From the sequence record MK295204: a DNA stretch of 64,000 bases, one strand, 5' to 3'. The notes beneath the pieces are model-generated. The model was given only the letters and a program-made list of their open reading frames with translations. It was not told the origin of the DNA and made no database searches. The DNA comes from Shigella phage vB_SdyM_006. Below are positions 7,862 through 60,639 of this stretch, piece after piece. The translations under genes and the position numbers were made by a program. Position 1 is the stretch's first letter; the number at the start of each line of letters is the position of its first letter.

Positions 7862-9183
7862 TATATATACCACACATTTTTCTGAGCACGAGTTGTTCCA
7901 ACATACAATAACTGTGAAGCAACATCGACTTCTGCATATTTTATAATACAAGGAGTATAAAGAAAACTATTTTTTACAGTAACACCTTGTGCCTTATGAA
8001 TTGTACTACATGGTATTGGTTTAACTTTGGAAAATGCATCTTTGATTTCCCAGAAATCATCCCAATAAGCACGCCCATTTCCTGATTTATATTGTTGGGC
8101 AACTTTACCTAAAAACATCCAAAGTTGAGTCTGGTTTTCTTCACCATAAACAACGTTAATGTAATTCGTTGTACCTTCGTCAATAGATTGAACTTTTAAA
8201 AGAAAATATGGCAAACTGATTTTAAAATCAACACCACGACATTCTAGTTTACGGTTCATTTCTTTTATTTCTAGAACTTGTACAACTTCGCCGTTATTAA
8301 AGATGATTTCTTTCATCTTTTTACCTTCAAACTTAATAGTTTGCATAAACGGCTCTTGCATTACTAAAGATTCACCCACAATAAATGGTGCTTCAGACTT
8401 ATAAAAATTCTTACGAATGATCTGGTTTAATTTGTCAACAGATTTATTTGTGTATGCAAAAAATCTATTATCAAAAAAATCTTCTTGACATTTAATTTGC
8501 TTAAAATAATCCAGCATCATATCACGTAAAGACGATGGGTGGAAAACGCCTTCTCCATTCTGGATGTTTTCTCGAATCCACCCACCATTTCTAATTTCTG
8601 TAGCAACTTCAATAATAGGTTGATTAGAACGTTTTACTTCTGTTAGATGCATTTGTTTAAAACGCTGATCTGTAAAAAATCTTGATACACCTGGATCGTC
8701 TTGTGGCTTCAACTGGGCTTTATCACCAATAGCAATAACAAGAGTCCAAGGCATAATATTATTCATTAATAACTCAAAAAGCTTAGTGTCATAAAATGAA
8801 GCTTCTTCACAAATAAGAACACGAATTTTATCTAATTCTGGAGCCTTGCGTTGTTCAAAAATACGGTGCTCTTCGTATGTGACTGGGTTTATTTTTAAGA
8901 TACTATGAATTGTAGAAACTTCTCGGCCTGTAAAATCTGCAAGAACTTTTTTAGATGCGTGTGTTGGTGCAGCTAAAACAACCCCAGGAATACCTTCTTG
9001 TTCAATAAAGTCCATAATAAACTTCATTAACAAACTTTTACCTGTACCTGCAGGGCCATTAATAGTTAAATGCGATACTTTAGCTTTCCAATTTGATTCT
9101 TGTTCATAAGCTTGTGTTATTAAATCTGTCGCACATTCATACGCTTCCCTTTGACCTTTTGTCAAGTCGTCAAATTCAATCAT
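7861..9183 (-). CDS. dda: Dda DNA helicase (SF1)
   Basis: 440 aa; HLTINGPAGTGKS Walker A, AAPTHASKKVL, STIHSILKINPVTYEE match remembered T4 Dda. Confidence 0.85.
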   Translation of the reverse strand: MIEFDDLTKGQREAYECATDLITQAYEQESNWKAKVSHLTINGPAGTGKSLLMKFIMDFIEQEGIPGVVLAAPTHASKKVLADFTGREVSTIHSILKINPVTYEEHRIFEQRKAPELDKIRVLICEEASFYDTKLFELLMNNIMPWTLVIAIGDKAQLKPQDDPGVSRFFTDQRFKQMHLTEVKRSNQPIIEVATEIRNGGWIRENIQNGEGVFHPSSLRDMMLDYFKQIKCQEDFFDNRFFAYTNKSVDKLNQIIRKNFYKSEAPFIVGESLVMQEPFMQTIKFEGKKMKEIIFNNGEVVQVLEIKEMNRKLECRGVDFKISLPYFLLKVQSIDEGTTNYINVVYGEENQTQLWMFLGKVAQQYKSGNGRAYWDDFWEIKDAFSKVKPIPCSTIHKAQGVTVKNSFLYTPCIIKYAEVDVASQLLYVGTTRAQKNVWYI

Positions 9184-9473
9184 ACTATTTTCACCCTTTT
9201 AACATAAAGTGTATCTAACATTCTCTTATAGAGTGTCGTCAAATATTCCGGTTTGTTGATTATTGTTTTTTCCTCTCGTTTAAACCAAAGGAATCGATGA
9301 TATTTTATATTGTATTTTGGTTTAAGCTCTTTAGAAAGATATTCTTTAAAACGTTTAAAGGCCTCATTAGAGAGACCTTTTGTTTTATATATCATTAGAA
9401 CTTGAGTATCAGGGTCTTGACATATAACATCAAATCCTGAAGAGTCTTTGTAGACTATCGCATAATAATACAT
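9180..9473 (-). CDS. hypothetical protein (dda.1 position)
   Basis: 97 aa, ATG start, ATGA overlap with dda. Confidence 0.35.
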   Translation of the reverse strand: MYYYAIVYKDSSGFDVICQDPDTQVLMIYKTKGLSNEAFKRFKEYLSKELKPKYNIKYHRFLWFKREEKTIINKPEYLTTLYKRMLDTLYVKRVKIV

Positions 9474-10089
9474 AAAGTTCTTTTCCTACTCTTTTATAAG
9501 AAGAATCTAATGAAATACCTAAATATAATTTTAATTTATCTAATTTAGATAGCTTATTAAATCTTTCTCCAGACTTAATAATAGTTTTTAATATACTAAT
9601 ATCTTTATCTTTAGATTTAACACATTTTTTATATTCTTTATTAAGACGTTTCATTTGCGCTTCTTTTAATCTAACAGATTCTGCTAATTGTTTATCATTT
9701 GGACAACACGCTAAACGCTTTTTAAGTTGGTTCAATTTTATTTGAGCTCTATCAAGTCCAGCTTTTGTTGTCTCTTTTGAGTTTTCACGTGATTTAATTA
9801 TAGCTTTAAGACCTTCTATATCTCGGTCGCCTTTATATTGATTATAAATTCCTTTGATAGGAATAACATTCCCTTTAACATAACCTTTGGAATTATCGAA
9901 TCGTTCAAAAGTAAGAGCATTCGGGTCATTTCGTTTAAATGACACAGAAATCGGTTCATCTGAATAAGCACACTTTGTTTGCTCACAAATATTTTGAACG
10001 TATCGCTTGGATAAATTAAACTCTTTATTGCGGGCTTTAGCAGACTGTTTTAAGTGCTTGAATTTACTACTTAATTGTTTAGAATCCAT
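9430..10089 (-). CDS. hypothetical protein, basic, coiled-coil C-terminus
   Basis: 219 aa, ATG with strong AGGAGG Shine-Dalgarno; occupies the srd/modA/modB region of T4 but no ART or sigma motif recognised. Confidence 0.4.
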   Translation of the reverse strand: MDSKQLSSKFKHLKQSAKARNKEFNLSKRYVQNICEQTKCAYSDEPISVSFKRNDPNALTFERFDNSKGYVKGNVIPIKGIYNQYKGDRDIEGLKAIIKSRENSKETTKAGLDRAQIKLNQLKKRLACCPNDKQLAESVRLKEAQMKRLNKEYKKCVKSKDKDISILKTIIKSGERFNKLSKLDKLKLYLGISLDSSYKRVGKELYVLLCDSLQRLFRI

Positions 10090-10145
10090 TTTTTCCTCCT
10101 AGATTTGATGGAAAGAATAATATAATAATCTAGGAGGAATGTAAA

Positions 10146-10340
10146 CTAATTAATGTAAACTATTTTTCCATTGATAGAGTATGTGATGGAAATTTCTTTT
10201 TTAAATCTATCTTTAATGCTTTCCGGGTAAATAGGAAGAATAGAATCGACAATTCTTAATTGGTCTTCTACACTCATAGAAGGACTAACAGGAAAGCCTT
10301 GTTTTTGAAGGATTCTAGACATTTGCATTAATGTTAGCAT
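10146..10340 (-). CDS. hypothetical protein
   Basis: 64 aa ORF, ATG start, stop-start overlap with gene 56. Confidence 0.3.
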   Translation of the reverse strand: MLTLMQMSRILQKQGFPVSPSMSVEDQLRIVDSILPIYPESIKDRFKKEISITYSINGKIVYIN

Positions 10341-10864
10341 TAATAACCTCGGCTTTGACGATCAAAGTTCTCTGCATTTTTTAAATAATACAAAACAAAG
10401 ATTTCTTCTGAAGACATACCAAGTCCAATAAGTTTATTCATAAAGAAATGCACTTGGTCAATCAATTCAAATTTTACTTCAAGTTGATCTGCTTCCGATA
10501 ACTCATCAAAAGGTTTTTTAGACATTTCTTCATGGCGAGCTTTCCAAGGTTTCCATACTGCTGATGCTTCTTTATCGCCATTAGACATACCGCCTAAAGA
10601 TGTATATAATTCACGGGTTTCGTCGTTTAAATAGTCATCTTGACTACGCATCCATTTAAGGATATCGCCACAAGTTTTTAATTCATCAGGTGACTGATTA
10701 TTAAATGGTTTATTTTTTGCTAAAAACACTTGCAATGATTTTTGCATATCAAGCATAACTTGTAAAGGATCACGTCCTGTTGAAACAATATCAGAATATG
10801 CTTCACGTGCTTTTGATAAAGAGTCTTCATCTACTAAAGTTGAACATACATTAAAATGAGCCAT
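10340..10864 (-). CDS. 56: dCTP pyrophosphatase gp56 (MazG-like)
   Basis: 174 aa; MAHFNVCS...DPLQVMLDMQKSLQ...ETRELYTSLGGMSNGDKEASAVWKPWK...EEIFVLYYLKNAENFDRQSRGY closely matches remembered T4 gp56. Confidence 0.8.
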   Translation of the reverse strand: MAHFNVCSTLVDEDSLSKAREAYSDIVSTGRDPLQVMLDMQKSLQVFLAKNKPFNNQSPDELKTCGDILKWMRSQDDYLNDETRELYTSLGGMSNGDKEASAVWKPWKARHEEMSKKPFDELSEADQLEVKFELIDQVHFFMNKLIGLGMSSEEIFVLYYLKNAENFDRQSRGY

Positions 10865-10872
10865 AATTTTCC

Positions 10873-11436
10873 TTATTCATAATGGATTAAAGTTTTTTGT
10901 GGTTGAGTAACGTTAATAACAGAACAAATTTTATCACATGACGGGTCTAAAGCTGAAATCCAAAAACCTGAGTCGTTCCATAAAGGCTCTTCAGAATATG
11001 CATAGATATCACCGTTTCGGTTTGTAGCAATATAATTTTTATCCTTTTTTATAAAAAGGGTTTTGCCAAAATATTCAACTTGTTTATATATCTCTTCAAC
11101 ACAATGGTCCCAAATAATTGAAGGGTCTTCTTGTTTAATTAAAAAATCTTTTGCTTCTTGTTCGGTATCAAAATAAAGACCTTCTGGTTTATGTGAACCG
11201 ACATAATAAAAAATTCTGTCTGGTGTATTTACTTGTTCTAAATCTTTTAATCTGTATGTATTAAATGCACCATTATCCCAGTTCACTTTAACACAATATC
11301 CATTAGTACCTTGATATTCTTCAGTAATTGTCCCTTCGACATGTGGATTTTCACGTTCTGGATTGGTAGAGTACCATTCAGAAGTTTTAGAAATACGTAC
11401 ACGATTACCTGGATAAAGCTGGTTTTTCTCTAACAT
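10873..11436 (-). CDS. hypothetical protein, tandem paralog family (copy A)
   Basis: 187 aa; N-terminal GNRVRISKTSEW...NP..EGTIT motif and C-terminal NYIATNRNGDIY shared with next ORFs. Confidence 0.45.
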   Translation of the reverse strand: MLEKNQLYPGNRVRISKTSEWYSTNPERENPHVEGTITEEYQGTNGYCVKVNWDNGAFNTYRLKDLEQVNTPDRIFYYVGSHKPEGLYFDTEQEAKDFLIKQEDPSIIWDHCVEEIYKQVEYFGKTLFIKKDKNYIATNRNGDIYAYSEEPLWNDSGFWISALDPSCDKICSVINVTQPQKTLIHYE

Positions 11437-11651
11437 TATACTTTCCTTAAACTTTTAGTCCAATGCACATTAATAGAGCATTTATCAATATAAAATATAT
11501 CACCAGGTGTAACCCAAATATACCCAGGATTTAAATATGGCCTTTTAGTGAATCCATATAAACGCCCATCAGATTCCATAGCAACATATTTTACATCATC
11601 ATTAACAGATAACTGTAGACCTAAATAATCTACAGTTTTTGTATTAACCAT
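11436..11651 (-). CDS. hypothetical protein, truncated paralog (C-terminal domain only)
   Basis: 71 aa; DYLGLQLSVNDDVKYVAMESDGRLYGF resembles C-terminal halves of flanking paralogs. Confidence 0.35.
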   Translation of the reverse strand: MVNTKTVDYLGLQLSVNDDVKYVAMESDGRLYGFTKRPYLNPGYIWVTPGDIFYIDKCSINVHWTKSLRKV

Positions 11652-12201
11652 ATTCTACAAGAGAATTTTTAGCTGTAAACGGTGCAGCACTGTTAAAACT
11701 ACCAATCCAATAGCAATTTTTATCGTAGGCCCGCCATTTTTGTAATAGATTATCGTATTCTGGTTTATCCCAGAATCCATTTACAATACCATCGACATTA
11801 GTAGCAATATAATTAATTGATTCCGGGACTTCAAATTCTTTGCCTAAGTAGTTCAGAACTTTTGTTTTGTCTTTAGGTCTTTCAACAAAAGAGCCCCAAT
11901 CAATAGTTTTTAATTGCAAATTACGTAAATGTTCTTTTGCTTCTTGTTCGGTGTCAAATACTTGAAGTGTTTCATTATTAAGAACACCATACACAAACAC
12001 TGGGTTGTTTACTAAATACAGATCTTCTTCTTTGTATTCATTATAAGACCCAAGGTCCCATTTTACACCAATAGGAAGAGTATTTCCAACAACAATGTCA
12101 GTTATAGTTCCTTCACAATTTGGATTAGCCTCTGTATTACCAGCAGCAATCCAATTAGAATTAGAACTAATTTTTACACGATCGCCTTTTTTAAATTTCA
12201 T
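11644..12201 (-). CDS. hypothetical protein, tandem paralog family (copy B)
   Basis: 185 aa; MKFKKGDRVKISSNSNW...NPNCEGTITD; FDTEQEAKEHL shared with copy A (FDTEQEAKDFL). Confidence 0.45.
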   Translation of the reverse strand: MKFKKGDRVKISSNSNWIAAGNTEANPNCEGTITDIVVGNTLPIGVKWDLGSYNEYKEEDLYLVNNPVFVYGVLNNETLQVFDTEQEAKEHLRNLQLKTIDWGSFVERPKDKTKVLNYLGKEFEVPESINYIATNVDGIVNGFWDKPEYDNLLQKWRAYDKNCYWIGSFNSAAPFTAKNSLVEYG

Positions 12202-12776
12202 TATAATTCCACCAAAGAATTTTTAGGATTTTCGATAACTTCTGCTCTAATAAGCAGTTCTACTTCTATGTCGCCACACTCGTCAGACCAAATACCGTCA
12301 TCTTCGTCATAAGTAGGTTTATGCATAAACGAATAAATATCGCCATCTTCATCAGTAGCAATATAATAATGGTCATCTTTAACTAATAATTCAACACCAA
12401 GATAATTAACAGATTTATATCCAGGAATATGTTGTTTATACGAAACTTTAAGTTTTGGTTCTTTATATGTAAGTTTTTCTAATTCCAAATTAGCCGTATG
12501 TAGTGAAGCAAATGTGCCATTTTTAGGGTCACCAAAAAATCCAATAGTGTAAAGAATTTTAGGCTCTATATTTTTAGCAGAAACTAAATCTTCTCCACGA
12601 TAAGTATTCGTGTAGCCCGAGTCCCATTGAACCTTGATAAAATGAGTGTCTTCATCGATTTGAGGGTACAATTCAATAACTATTCCTTTTACATCAGATG
12701 GGTTGTGGTCTGACTTGCCAAAATATTGTGAGCCAGGAGCAAGTAATACTTTATCACCGATATTAAATTCGCTCAT
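12201..12776 (-). CDS. hypothetical protein, tandem paralog family (copy C)
   Basis: 191 aa; MSEFNIGDKVLLAPGSQYF...NPSDVKGIVIE; HYYIATDEDGDIYSF. Confidence 0.45.
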   Translation of the reverse strand: MSEFNIGDKVLLAPGSQYFGKSDHNPSDVKGIVIELYPQIDEDTHFIKVQWDSGYTNTYRGEDLVSAKNIEPKILYTIGFFGDPKNGTFASLHTANLELEKLTYKEPKLKVSYKQHIPGYKSVNYLGVELLVKDDHYYIATDEDGDIYSFMHKPTYDEDDGIWSDECGDIEVELLIRAEVIENPKNSLVEL

Positions 12777-12786
12777 TATGAGTCCT

Positions 12787-13239
12787 TTATTTTAAGATAT
12801 TTGAAGCTAATTGGATATCATAAAAGGATAACCCAATTAAGCCATTAACTTGAATGAAGTTGCCTTCTAGGCCATATACATAATGCTGAATAGAATCATC
12901 TAATACAACATATTTTTCGACTTTATGGTCTAAAACATACCTTAAGATACTTACACCGCGTGATCGTCCGCCACCAGTATAATCTATTGTATCATAGATG
13001 TCTATTCCTAGAGCTTCAGAGATTTCTTTTTCTCGCTCTTTGCATTTGGGGTCTCCAGACGGTCTGGCCCAAGAAGAAATTAAAACAACTTTAGCGTCGA
13101 CACACGATAATAGGTCATGGAAACGTTGCAATTCATAGTGTCCAATATAACCTAAACGTGTTCTAACTGCTAAATCATCGTCAAAACATGATCGTTGGCT
13201 ATTTAACACACCGTCAATATCAAGAAATATCACATTCAT
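12787..13239 (-). CDS. HAD-superfamily hydrolase-like protein
   Basis: Track ORF 12787..13254; start moved to ATG at 13239 (TAATG coupling); MNVIFLDIDGVLN = HAD motif I (DxDG). Confidence 0.45.
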   Translation of the reverse strand: MNVIFLDIDGVLNSQRSCFDDDLAVRTRLGYIGHYELQRFHDLLSCVDAKVVLISSWARPSGDPKCKEREKEISEALGIDIYDTIDYTGGGRSRGVSILRYVLDHKVEKYVVLDDSIQHYVYGLEGNFIQVNGLIGLSFYDIQLASNILK

Positions 13240-13424
13240 TAGTTTTCTTCCCATGCATCACATTCTGTTGTGTCATCACGAACTACGTCTTCGTCAATTA
13301 ACACACCACAACCGTATTCTTCAACATCTTTTAAAGCCTCTTCAATTGTTTCAGCTTCAACTTCATAAATCCGTCGTCCGCGAACATATCCTGAAAAGTT
13401 TACTCCAACTTTAAATTTGGCCAT
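13239..13424 (-). CDS. hypothetical acidic small protein
   Basis: Track start is TTG; first ATG at 13424 with GGAG Shine-Dalgarno; 61 aa. Confidence 0.3.
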   Translation of the reverse strand: MAKFKVGVNFSGYVRGRRIYEVEAETIEEALKDVEEYGCGVLIDEDVVRDDTTECDAWEEN

Positions 13425-60163: not shown

Positions 60164-60639
60164 TTTGTGTCTCCTTTAATTTCATCAAGAAAGTCAAAAT
60201 AAGCGTTAGGATAAAACAATAGAATAAATGGTGTCATTGCTAGCCCAATAGAATACAATATCATACTCAATAAATCTGTAGAATAATGTATAAAGAAAGG
60301 CCAAACTATTAAAATATACATCATTATCATAAAAATAGTGTTCATCATATAAATATTGGACAATTTATGCGGTACACTGTAATACCCGTTTTGGTATCTA
60401 TTGTTATTATTACTTAATGAAATTACAATATCACCTACCGTCTCTTTATCGAAACCTAAATTTATTGTTTCAAACATGACAAAGAGTCCTAAAACTATAC
60501 AACTTATTAAAAATAATAATGAATATGCAAACCCTGCTCCTGTGTTTGCCCACATATCAAATGAGAACAATGTATTTCCAGATAACACAAGTAAAAATAT
60601 AAAGACAACTTTGTTGATTTGAGATAATAAATAATTCAT
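60160..60639 (-). CDS. hypothetical polytopic membrane protein
   Basis: 159 aa; several hydrophobic segments. Confidence 0.35.
   Translation of the reverse strand: MNYLLSQINKVVFIFLLVLSGNTLFSFDMWANTGAGFAYSLLFLISCIVLGLFVMFETINLGFDKETVGDIVISLSNNNNRYQNGYYSVPHKLSNIYMMNTIFMIMMYILIVWPFFIHYSTDLLSMILYSIGLAMTPFILLFYPNAYFDFLDEIKGDTK

What the first reader, a model, noticed from the sequence alone, without database searches (positions are those of the whole stretch)
10873..12776. Tandem array of three full and one truncated paralog between gene 56 and the HAD gene
Three ~185-190-aa ORFs share an N-terminal G-[DN]-[RK]-V-x-I...NP...G-[TI] module and a C-terminal Y-I-A-T-[ND]-x-[DN]-G-D-I-Y module; a fourth 71-aa ORF carries only the C-terminal module. 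Local duplication and diversification is typical of fast-evolving host-interaction or anti-defence loci. Family function is unknown.
Basis: seen in the sequence. Interest (0 to 1): 0.45.

Follow-up and report, generated by a model that had tools for sequence, protein, structure and literature searches.

The report
Tandem two-domain phage accessory genes
Four neighbouring genes of a T4-like phage are real, anciently diverged relatives built from an SH3-like domain and a second, undescribed small beta domain; this is an ordinary variable accessory-gene cluster whose function is still unknown.

Summary
They are significantly paralogous (BLASTP E 4e-25 to 4e-14; t against C 4e-8).

The window is essentially Shigella phage vB_SdyM_006 (genus Bragavirus), genes 014-017, all annotated hypothetical.

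Each full copy has three parts:
- an N-terminal SH3-like barrel remotely homologous to the MIB/HERC2 domain (hhalign probability 93%)
- a short beta-beta-alpha segment
- a C-terminal all-beta domain of about 70 aa

The two domains are independent modules in other phage proteins. They occur alone, in tandem repeats of up to eight, or fused to enzymes.

The 71-aa ORF is a conserved stand-alone C-domain gene, not a decaying fragment.

Copy number between HAD and gene 56 ranges from 1 to 3.5 in related phages. It changes by cassette exchange at short conserved coding patches. dN/dS is 0.1-0.4, against about 0.05 for the flanking enzymes. That indicates relaxed constraint, not demonstrable positive selection.

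Function is untested. The best inference is non-catalytic early binding proteins. An anti-defence role is possible but has no direct support.

The parts
10873..11436 (-). Paralog A (187 aa; vBSdyM006_014), the slot next to gene 56. N module about 11221-11415, beta-beta-alpha segment about 11101-11220, C module about 10876-11100.
   Evidence: ORF. It matches phrog_11307 at E 1e-64. It is 97% identical to phiP4-3 gp161. The AF2 model has pLDDT 78, with an SH3-like barrel and an all-beta C domain.
11436..11651 (-). t: a 71-aa stand-alone C-module gene (vBSdyM006_015). Its ATG lies two codons before the stop of B (8-nt overlap), and its stop overlaps the ATG of A by 1 nt.
   Evidence: ORF. It matches phrog_1972 at E 2.9e-17. 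It is 100% identical in protein to phiP4-3 gp162, with 4 synonymous and 0 non-synonymous differences. AF2 gives pLDDT 95.5 and pTM 0.83.
11644..12201 (-). Paralog B (185 aa; vBSdyM006_016). N module 12001-12201, middle segment 11878-12000, C module 11647-11877.
   Evidence: ORF and family match. It is 42% identical to phiP4-3 gp163, which occupies the same slot. It is 96% identical to the copy on metagenome contig L019.
12201..12776 (-). Paralog C (191 aa; vBSdyM006_017), the slot next to HAD. It was found only in this phage and one metagenome contig. N module 12561-12773, middle segment 12432-12560, C module 12204-12431.
   Evidence: ORF and family match. It is 100% identical to vBSdyM006_017. 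It is 82% identical to the L019 copy, although the loci share 96% DNA identity overall.
11672..12805 (.). Variable cassette: most of B, all of C and the 3' end of the HAD gene. It has no DNA similarity to phiP4-3 or to any record in the phage collection.
   Evidence: A distant-mode blastn against 50,697 phage records found no match.
11652..11672 (.). Short conserved coding patch (KNSLVE, at the end of B), repeated at 12206-12226 (the end of C). It coincides with the homology breakpoint against phiP4-3 and is a candidate site for unequal or cassette recombination.
   Evidence: Repeat family D5, 86% identical copies. The breakpoint falls at 11671/11672.
10340..10864 (-). Flanking gene 56 (dCTPase/dUTPase). 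It lies immediately downstream of the array in every related phage examined.
12787..13254 (-). Flanking stand-alone HAD phosphatase gene (HAD_SAK_2 type). It lies immediately upstream of the array region in every related phage examined.
   Evidence: PF18143 match at E 3.9e-20. Synteny.

Best explanation
**What is shown**
- The locus encodes a family of small, soluble, acidic, non-enzymatic proteins. It sits in the plastic interval between gene 56 and the primase gene 61 of a T4-like Bragavirus.
- Each full-length member joins three parts: an SH3-fold barrel remotely homologous to the eukaryotic MIB/HERC2 peptide-recognition domain, a short beta-beta-alpha segment, and a roughly 70-aa all-beta domain that is not in Pfam or NCBIfam and has no solved-structure relative.
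- The 71-aa gene is that last domain on its own.
- The genes are tightly packed and translationally coupled. No terminator-like site on their strand lies between the hairpin upstream of gene 61 and gene 56, so co-transcription with gene 61, the HAD gene and gene 56 is likely.
- Copy number (1 to 3.5) and the allele in each slot change between related phages. The change happens by recombination at short conserved coding patches.

**What is inferred**
- The proteins probably act stoichiometrically as binders (adaptors, inhibitors or decoys) of host or phage proteins early in infection.
- The barrel would supply peptide recognition. The C domain would supply a second contact or self-association.
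- The paralogs would differ in target specificity.
For: **Paralogy and anatomy**
- The paralogy and the domain layout are established.

**N module**
- The Pfam MIB_HERC2 model is the recurrent best hit (5 of 10 family members, best E 9e-5).
- The family profile reaches a genuine protein with ten MIB/HERC2 domains at E 4e-12 in a library of 1.8 billion proteins.
- hhalign gives probability 93.4% and E 2.6e-7.
- The AF2 barrel finds SH3, KOW, Tudor and HERC2 folds.

**C module**
- The model has pLDDT 95.5.
- No Pfam or NCBIfam family matches.
- 26 uncharacterised phage proteins share the fold.
- tblastn finds it in 233 of 50,697 phage records but in only 1 of 72,556 plasmids.

**Modularity**
- Among the 150 best relatives plus a second copy of C from an earlier search (151 proteins in all), 106 have only N modules, 31 have only C modules and 14 have both. 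Repeats reach 8 C modules or 5 N modules per protein.

**No sign of catalysis**
- The invariant residues are hydrophobic, Gly, Pro, Asn, Tyr and Trp.
- The proteins are acidic, with pI 4.6-4.9.

**Real genes under constraint**
- dN/dS is 0.10-0.38.
- t has 4 synonymous and 0 non-synonymous changes.

**Expression class**
- Gene spacing is tight.
- The only minus-strand terminator-like site is at 14799-14780.
- The T4 late-promoter motif is nearly absent from the window.

**Slot variation and breakpoints**
- These are shown.
Against: - No experiment or annotated homologue gives any function. Every relative is 'hypothetical'.
- The inference that the proteins are binders rests on analogy with MIB/HERC2 and on the absence of catalytic motifs.
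- The N module scores below the Pfam gathering threshold (16.6-18.3 bits against 33.5).
- SH3-like barrels can also bind nucleic acids.
- The relative orientation of the domains is not predicted (pTM 0.40).
- Promoter assignment is not established. Consensus matches are at the chance level.
Confidence: 0.45

Rival explanations
1. Anti-defence or host-takeover arsenal. Each paralog neutralises a different host immunity or housekeeping protein, and copy number tracks the host range (Shigella against Proteus, Providencia and Morganella).
For: - The locus lies in a plastic interval, with cassette exchange and variable copy number.
- dN/dS is higher than in the flanking genes.
- Related N modules occur in a polyvalent-type protein with an ART-PolyVal domain.
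- The extra C-type copy is present in the phage isolated on S. dysenteriae and absent from the Proteus phage phiP4-3, which is otherwise about 98% identical in the adjoining DNA.
Against: - There is no similarity to any solved anti-defence protein.
- dN/dS stays below 1.
- T4 has no homologue, so no genetics can be borrowed.
- No anti-defence library was available to test against.
- Accessory genes vary in this way whatever their function.
Confidence: 0.2
2. Accessory scaffold subunits of the phage nucleotide-precursor or replication machinery. They would tether the dCTPase, the HAD phosphatase or other enzymes.
For: - The order HAD - array - gene 56 is conserved in all eleven related loci, plus SJ_PmiM on gene sizes, order and its dCTP pyrophosphatase annotation.
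- C modules are fused to a dCMP deaminase in 2 relatives, and an N module is fused to a dATP/dGTP diphosphohydrolase in 1.
- A protein with two C modules sits next to DHFR and thymidylate synthase genes.
Against: - The synteny lies within one group of related phages with collinear genomes, so it carries little functional weight.
- Enzyme fusions are 3 of 75 partner proteins.
- Most C-module genes sit among small unannotated early genes with no enzyme nearby.
- T4, the model for the dNTP-synthesising complex, lacks both modules.
- Variable copy number is unexpected for a core scaffold.
Confidence: 0.12
3. Nucleic-acid-binding proteins, with the SH3, KOW or Tudor-like barrel binding RNA or DNA, that regulate early mRNA or replication.
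For: The Foldseek hits of the barrel include KOW domains of ribosomal protein eS4, PetP and YorP. The genes sit among replication and transcription-control genes.
Against: - The proteins and each of their modules are acidic. Net charge is -6 to -17, and the N module has pI 5.3.
- The closest sequence family is the peptide-binding MIB/HERC2 domain.
- All fold matches are weak (E at least 5e-3).
Confidence: 0.1
4. The ORFs, or at least the 71-aa one, are non-functional remnants of duplication.
For: t has no clear Shine-Dalgarno sequence. It carries only one of the modules.
Against: - t has 4 synonymous and 0 non-synonymous changes against phiP4-3. It is 98.6% identical in L019.
- SJ_PmiM has a 70-aa ORF in the same slot.
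- Stand-alone C-module genes occur in many phages.
- The fold is predicted with very high confidence.
- No N-module remnant lies upstream of t, because its start overlaps the end of B.
Confidence: 0.03

Closest known systems
MIB/HERC2 domain (Pfam PF06701; SH3-fold substrate-recognition module of Mind bomb, HERC2 and HECTD1), and the related DUF4314 (PF14192)
   Same: The motif pattern is shared: G-x-R-V ... G-T-[IV] ... V-x-W-D-N-G-x-x-N-x-Y-R ... D-L. hhalign gives probability 93%. The model is an SH3-like barrel. UniProt names the phiP4-3 orthologue 'DUF4314 domain-containing'.
   Different: The match scores below the Pfam threshold. The W-K-W-G-x-Q-D-G loop of the eukaryotic domain is replaced by S-x-Y-Y...N-P. 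There is no E3-ligase context. The window proteins do not reach DUF4314 at E up to 1 in this Pfam copy.
PHROG families 11307 (full length), 18715 and 9469 (N module), 1972, 23941 and 19703 (C module)
   Same: The window proteins are clear members, with E values of 1e-64 to 3e-17.
   Different: These are catalogue clusters with no function assigned and no published domain description.
Plastic accessory-gene clusters of T4-like phages, such as the T4 interval between genes 56 and 61, which holds dam
   Same: The genomic position is the same (between genes 56 and 61). The genes are small and tightly packed, and the content differs from phage to phage.
   Different: T4 has neither module anywhere in the 150 kb scanned. 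The content here is a paralogous family rather than unrelated single genes.
Polyvalent proteins of phages and conjugative elements (Iyer et al. 2017, PMC5512222)
   Same: Related N modules occur in a large multidomain phage protein carrying an ART-PolyVal domain.
   Different: The window proteins are small and have no enzymatic domain. The paper does not describe either module. Both modules are virtually absent from plasmids.

Membership tests
MIB/HERC2 domain (PF06701) | Score at or above the Pfam gathering threshold (33.5 bits) | tested here: not met
   The scores are 16.6 and 18.3 bits for A and C, and B has no hit. Among 10 family members the best E-value is 8.9e-5.
MIB/HERC2 domain (PF06701) | Profile-level homology to genuine MIB/HERC2 repeats | tested here: met
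   hhalign gives probability 93.4% and E 2.6e-7 over 50 columns. The family profile hits a protein with ten MIB/HERC2 domains at E 4e-12.
MIB/HERC2 domain (PF06701) | SH3-like beta-barrel fold | tested here: inconclusive
   The AF2 model shows a five-strand barrel with pLDDT about 80-87. Foldseek hits are all SH3, KOW or Tudor folds, including HERC2 entry 9l8y, but the E-values are 5e-3 to 8e-2.
DUF4314 (PF14192) | Match to the Pfam model | tested here: not met
   The four window proteins have no hit at E up to 1. Two of 75 related proteins match. UniProt nevertheless labels the phiP4-3 orthologue DUF4314.
phrog_11307 | Full-length match to the family profile | tested here: met
   E-values are 1e-64 (A), 2.7e-37 (B) and 9.3e-34 (C). 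t matches the C-terminal third at 3.6e-9.
phrog_1972 (stand-alone or repeated C module) | Match to the family profile | tested here: met
   t matches at E 2.9e-17. A, B and C match at 7e-11, 9e-9 and 2e-12.
Known anti-phage defence proteins (PADLOC) | Match to any model | tested here: not met
   There is no hit apart from one chance-level match at E 0.019.
Known anti-defence proteins | Sequence or fold similarity to a characterised inhibitor | tested here: not met
Polyvalent proteins (Iyer et al. 2017) | Two or more effector or enzymatic domains in one polypeptide | tested here: not met
   The window proteins are 71-191 aa and contain only the N module, middle segment and C module. No enzymatic domain was found.
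Tandem paralogous gene array produced by local duplication | Adjacent genes on the same strand with significant mutual similarity | tested here: met
   Divergence of 28-35% identity shows the duplications are old.

The most novel reading that the evidence does not exclude
The roughly 70-aa C module is a new protein fold that defines a large family seen here almost only in phage records. It would act as a portable inhibitor or sensor-blocking unit against a host system. The Bragavirus array would then be a set of specificity variants, each steered by an MIB/HERC2-like recognition barrel and tuned to the host. The extra C-type copy would accompany the shift from Proteus to Shigella.
Probability: 0.12. 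Interest if true: 0.65.

Novelty: new member of a known kind. Interest (0 to 1): 0.33.

Why it matters
As a locus it is one more variable accessory-gene cluster in a T4-like phage. Its genes are already deposited as hypothetical proteins.

The useful by-product is a domain-level description of two modules that recur widely in phage proteins.

- One is a viral branch of the MIB/HERC2 SH3-fold domain.
- The other is a compact beta domain with a very confident predicted structure, no curated family and no solved relative. It is present in 233 sequenced phages and forms up to eight tandem repeats per protein.

Both modules are cheap, well-defined targets for structure determination and for interaction or anti-defence screens.

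The near-isogenic pair vB_SdyM_006 and phiP4-3 differs at this cassette, which offers a natural experiment on its role.

Tried and rejected
**Searches for a known function, all negative**
- Pfam, NCBIfam and PADLOC scans gave no usable function.
- Sequence searches of PDB with the family and C-module profiles gave only chance-level hits, apart from weak MIB1 and HECTD1 matches.
- HMM scans of 150 of the 169 kb of T4 found no homologue of either module, so no T4 gene name or genetics can be transferred.
- Literature searches for DUF4314 and for MIB/HERC2 together with bacteriophage found nothing. The polyvalent-protein and jumbo-phage papers do not mention these modules.

**Searches for more relatives, of little yield**
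- The word-indexed protein search found only near-identical relatives.

**Ideas tested and dropped**
- Guilt by association: C-module genes in Seurat, phAPEC8 and a Klebsiella phage lie among unannotated small genes. A 'head morphogenesis' label on one N-module protein belongs to a 248-aa protein among small early genes and was judged unreliable.
- N and C modules being related to each other: rejected (hhalign probability 0.2%).
- Positive selection: not supported (dN/dS 0.10-0.38).
- A paralog as donor for the mismatch cluster in gene A: none matches.
- RNA elements in the region: no Rfam match in the window.
- Promoter consensus matches inside the array are at the chance level (38 found, 33.5 expected).
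Full report
**1. Observation**

ORF listing shows four minus-strand ORFs exactly as described:

| ORF | Coordinates | Length |
|---|---|---|
| A | 10873-11436 | 187 aa |
| t | 11436-11651 | 71 aa |
| B | 11644-12201 | 185 aa |
| C | 12201-12776 | 191 aa |

- They are packed with 1-, 8- and 1-nt overlaps.
- Pairwise BLASTP gives A/B 34% identity (E 4e-25), A/C 30% (5e-17) and B/C 31% (4e-14).
- t aligns only with the C-terminal part of the others, best with C at 47% over 34 residues (E 4e-8).
- All four match phrog_11307. The N and C parts also match separate PHROG families.
- HMMs of the two modules find no other copy in the 64-kb window.
- The flanks are gene 56 (dCTPase, 10340-10864) and a HAD phosphatase of the HAD_SAK_2 type (12787-13254; PF18143, E 4e-20).
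- No Rfam family matches anywhere in the window.

**2. Identity of the window**

- Protein C is 100% identical to vBSdyM006_017 of Shigella phage vB_SdyM_006. A and B each fall in the same 90%-identity cluster as the phage's genes 014 and 016. The cluster holding t includes the accession of its gene 015.
- The phage was published as a T4-like phage closest to Proteus phage phiP4-3 (PMC7925395).
- The nearest record in the phage collection is phiP4-3, genus Bragavirus.
- All four genes are annotated 'hypothetical protein'.

**3. Anatomy of the proteins**

An alignment of ten full-length family members and an AlphaFold2 model of A (pLDDT 78) show three parts.

*N module (about residues 8-72), a five-strand SH3-like barrel*
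- Its recurrent best Pfam hit is MIB_HERC2, which is below threshold (16.6-18.3 bits against 33.5). Five of 10 members match, with a best E-value of 9e-5.
- The family profile reaches a protein with ten genuine MIB/HERC2 domains at E 4e-12 in an exhaustive search of 1.8 billion proteins.
- A profile-profile comparison gives probability 93.4% and E 2.6e-7.
- The top PDB sequence hits are Mind bomb 1 and HECTD1.
- Foldseek finds only weak SH3, KOW, Tudor and HERC2 matches.
- UniProt labels the phiP4-3 orthologue DUF4314, although this Pfam copy gives no such hit for the window proteins.
- I read it as a viral, shortened relative of the MIB/HERC2 domain, not a member by Pfam's own criterion.

*Middle segment (about residues 73-112), beta-beta-alpha*
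- It has a conserved F-x-T-E-x-E-A motif.
- It travels with the N module in N-only proteins, such as Pm5461 gp021.

*C module (about 70-75 residues), all-beta*
- Modelled on t with 42 diverse homologues, it gives pLDDT 95.5 and pTM 0.83.
- It has no Pfam or NCBIfam family.
- In the library of viral predicted structures, 26 proteins share the fold at E up to 1e-3. None has a functional name: the named ones are 'uncharacterized', apart from the DUF4314 label on phiP4-3 gp161. They include proteins of T4-like Vibrio, Aeromonas and Acinetobacter phages and of jumbo phages.

The N and C modules are unrelated to each other.

**4. Distribution**

- The exhaustive profile search found 2,396 cluster representatives at E up to 1e-3.
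- I classified the 150 best hits plus a second copy of C from an earlier search (151 proteins). Of these, 106 carry only N modules (1 to 5 copies), 31 carry only C modules (2 to 8 copies) and 14 carry both.
- Partner domains are rare and heterogeneous: dCMP deaminase (2), dATP/dGTP diphosphohydrolase (1), ART-PolyVal (1) and the L7/L12 C-terminal domain (1).
- tblastn with consensus sequences finds the C module in 233 of 50,697 phage records. These include Seuratvirus, Nonagvirus, Phapecoctavirus, Klebsiella siphophages and jumbo phages. The N module is found in 38 records.
- In plasmids, the C module occurs in 1 of 72,556 records and the N module in none.
- Genomic contexts are phage early regions full of small unannotated genes.
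- T4 has neither module in the 150 kb scanned. Its interval between genes 56 and 61 holds dam.

**5. The array in related phages**

The order HAD - array - gene 56 is conserved in every related phage examined, but the content of the array varies:

| Phage or contig | Array content (N = N module with middle segment, C = C module) |
|---|---|
| Window and ENA contig L019 | NC - NC - C - NC |
| phiP4-3 and SJ_PmiM | NC - C - NC |
| Pm5461 and PM2 | N - NC |
| PSTCR6 and contig L020 | NC - NC |
| Morganella MP1 | short NC - unrelated 273-aa gene - NC |
| PSTRCR_121 | unrelated 282-aa gene - NC |

- Proteins in the same slot are only 27-47% identical between these phages. gp56 is 69-100% identical and HAD 47-99%.
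- SJ_PmiM combines a phiP4-3-type allele in one slot with a Pm5461-type allele in another.
- Against phiP4-3, the window is 98% identical from 9000 to 11671. It then has no detectable DNA similarity from 11672 to 12805. After that, identity is 80-89%.
- The cassette 11672-12805 matches nothing in the phage collection, even in distant mode.
- The breakpoint coincides with a 21-nt coding patch (KNSLVE) that is repeated at the end of B and the end of C. Other short patches (FDTEQEAK, NYIAT) are also conserved at the DNA level between paralogs.
- This pattern indicates cassette exchange and unequal recombination at conserved motif-coding patches, not recent duplication.

**6. Selection**

| Comparison | Gene | Result |
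|---|---|---|
| vs L019 (96% nt identity) | HAD | dN/dS 0.04 |
| vs L019 | gp56 | dN/dS 0.05 |
| vs L019 | A | dN/dS 0.10 |
| vs L019 | C | dN/dS 0.31 |
| vs L019 | B | dN/dS 0.38 |
| vs phiP4-3 | t | 4 synonymous, 0 non-synonymous changes |

- C has elevated dS as well, and its last 45 residues are identical to the L019 copy. It is therefore mosaic.
- The genes are constrained, less tightly than the flanking enzymes. There is no evidence of positive selection.

**7. Expression**

- All genes from the primase gene to gene 56 are contiguous on the minus strand.
- The only terminator-like hairpin on that strand is at 14799-14780, upstream of the primase gene.
- The T4 late-promoter motif TATAAATA occurs once in the window against 16.6 expected.
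- Early or middle co-transcription is therefore likely, but it is inferred.

**8. Mechanism**

*Shown:* the domain composition, the modularity, the lack of conserved catalytic-type residues, and the acidic, soluble character of the proteins (pI 4.6-4.9).

*Inferred:*
- These are stoichiometric binding proteins. By analogy with MIB/HERC2 in Mind bomb, HERC2 and HECTD1, the barrel would recognise a peptide or protein surface. This role of MIB/HERC2 is established knowledge, and the PDB hits 4xi6 and 3dkm are those proteins.
- The C module would be a second interaction or self-association unit.
- I put about 0.45 on this general model.

*Rivals:*

| Rival reading | Probability |
|---|---|
| Anti-defence or host-takeover specialisation | about 0.2 |
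| Scaffold for nucleotide-metabolism enzymes | about 0.12 |
| Nucleic-acid binding | about 0.1 |
| Non-functional remnants | about 0.03 |

**9. Novelty and verdict**

- The locus is an ordinary kind of thing: a variable accessory-gene family in a plastic region of a T4-like genome, already deposited as hypothetical proteins and clustered in PHROGs.
- What is new is descriptive: the link to MIB/HERC2, and the recognition of a widespread, uncurated beta domain with a confident and apparently unmatched fold, seen here almost only in phage records.
- Interest is modest.

Noticed in passing
window 1-64000: The T4 late-promoter motif TATAAATA occurs once (60348-60355, + strand) against 16.6 +/- 4.1 expected from shuffles. 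That is a strong depletion, consistent with an early/middle-gene region read entirely from the minus strand.
   Followed up: partly
window 13236-13245 (junction); L001 4149-4937: A 262-aa gene lies between the HAD gene and the 61-aa gene in phiP4-3, Pm5461, PM2 and SJ_PmiM, and 69% identical copies occur in Morganella and Providencia phages. It is absent from the window. It has no Pfam match.
   Followed up: partly
window 11254-11292: Of the 13 nucleotide differences between gene A and its phiP4-3 orthologue, 11 fall in this 39-nt stretch. They change 5 residues flanking the invariant W-D-N-G-x-x-N-x-Y motif of the barrel. No sampled paralog looks like the donor. The stretch could be a short conversion tract or could mark specificity-determining positions.
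   Followed up: partly
window 12787-13254: A stand-alone HAD phosphatase of the HAD_SAK_2 type sits next to the dCTPase region in all related phages. Pfam describes this type from multidomain RNA-repair proteins. Its substrate is unknown.
   Followed up: no
L007 7620-12037 (GCA_040384185.1 contig JAWVGY010000536.1): Two adjacent genes of a roughly 62-kb phage-like contig encode proteins of 794 and 678 aa that consist almost entirely of 7-8 tandem C modules. It is unclear whether these form a closed ring or a string of domains.
   Followed up: no
L010 4164-6203 (JGI 3300007171): A 679-aa phage protein joins five or six C modules to a C-terminal dCMP deaminase domain. A second protein of this type is among the hits.
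   Followed up: no
window 9400-9970: Differences from phiP4-3 also cluster in the Srd-like anti-sigma gene (9430-10089): about 25 of the 55 mismatches in 9000-11671, with dN/dS 0.16.
   Followed up: no
window 1-64000: Nearly all ORFs of 90 aa or more in the first 30 kb are on the minus strand, and GC skew is negative in every 2-kb bin across the whole window.
   Followed up: no
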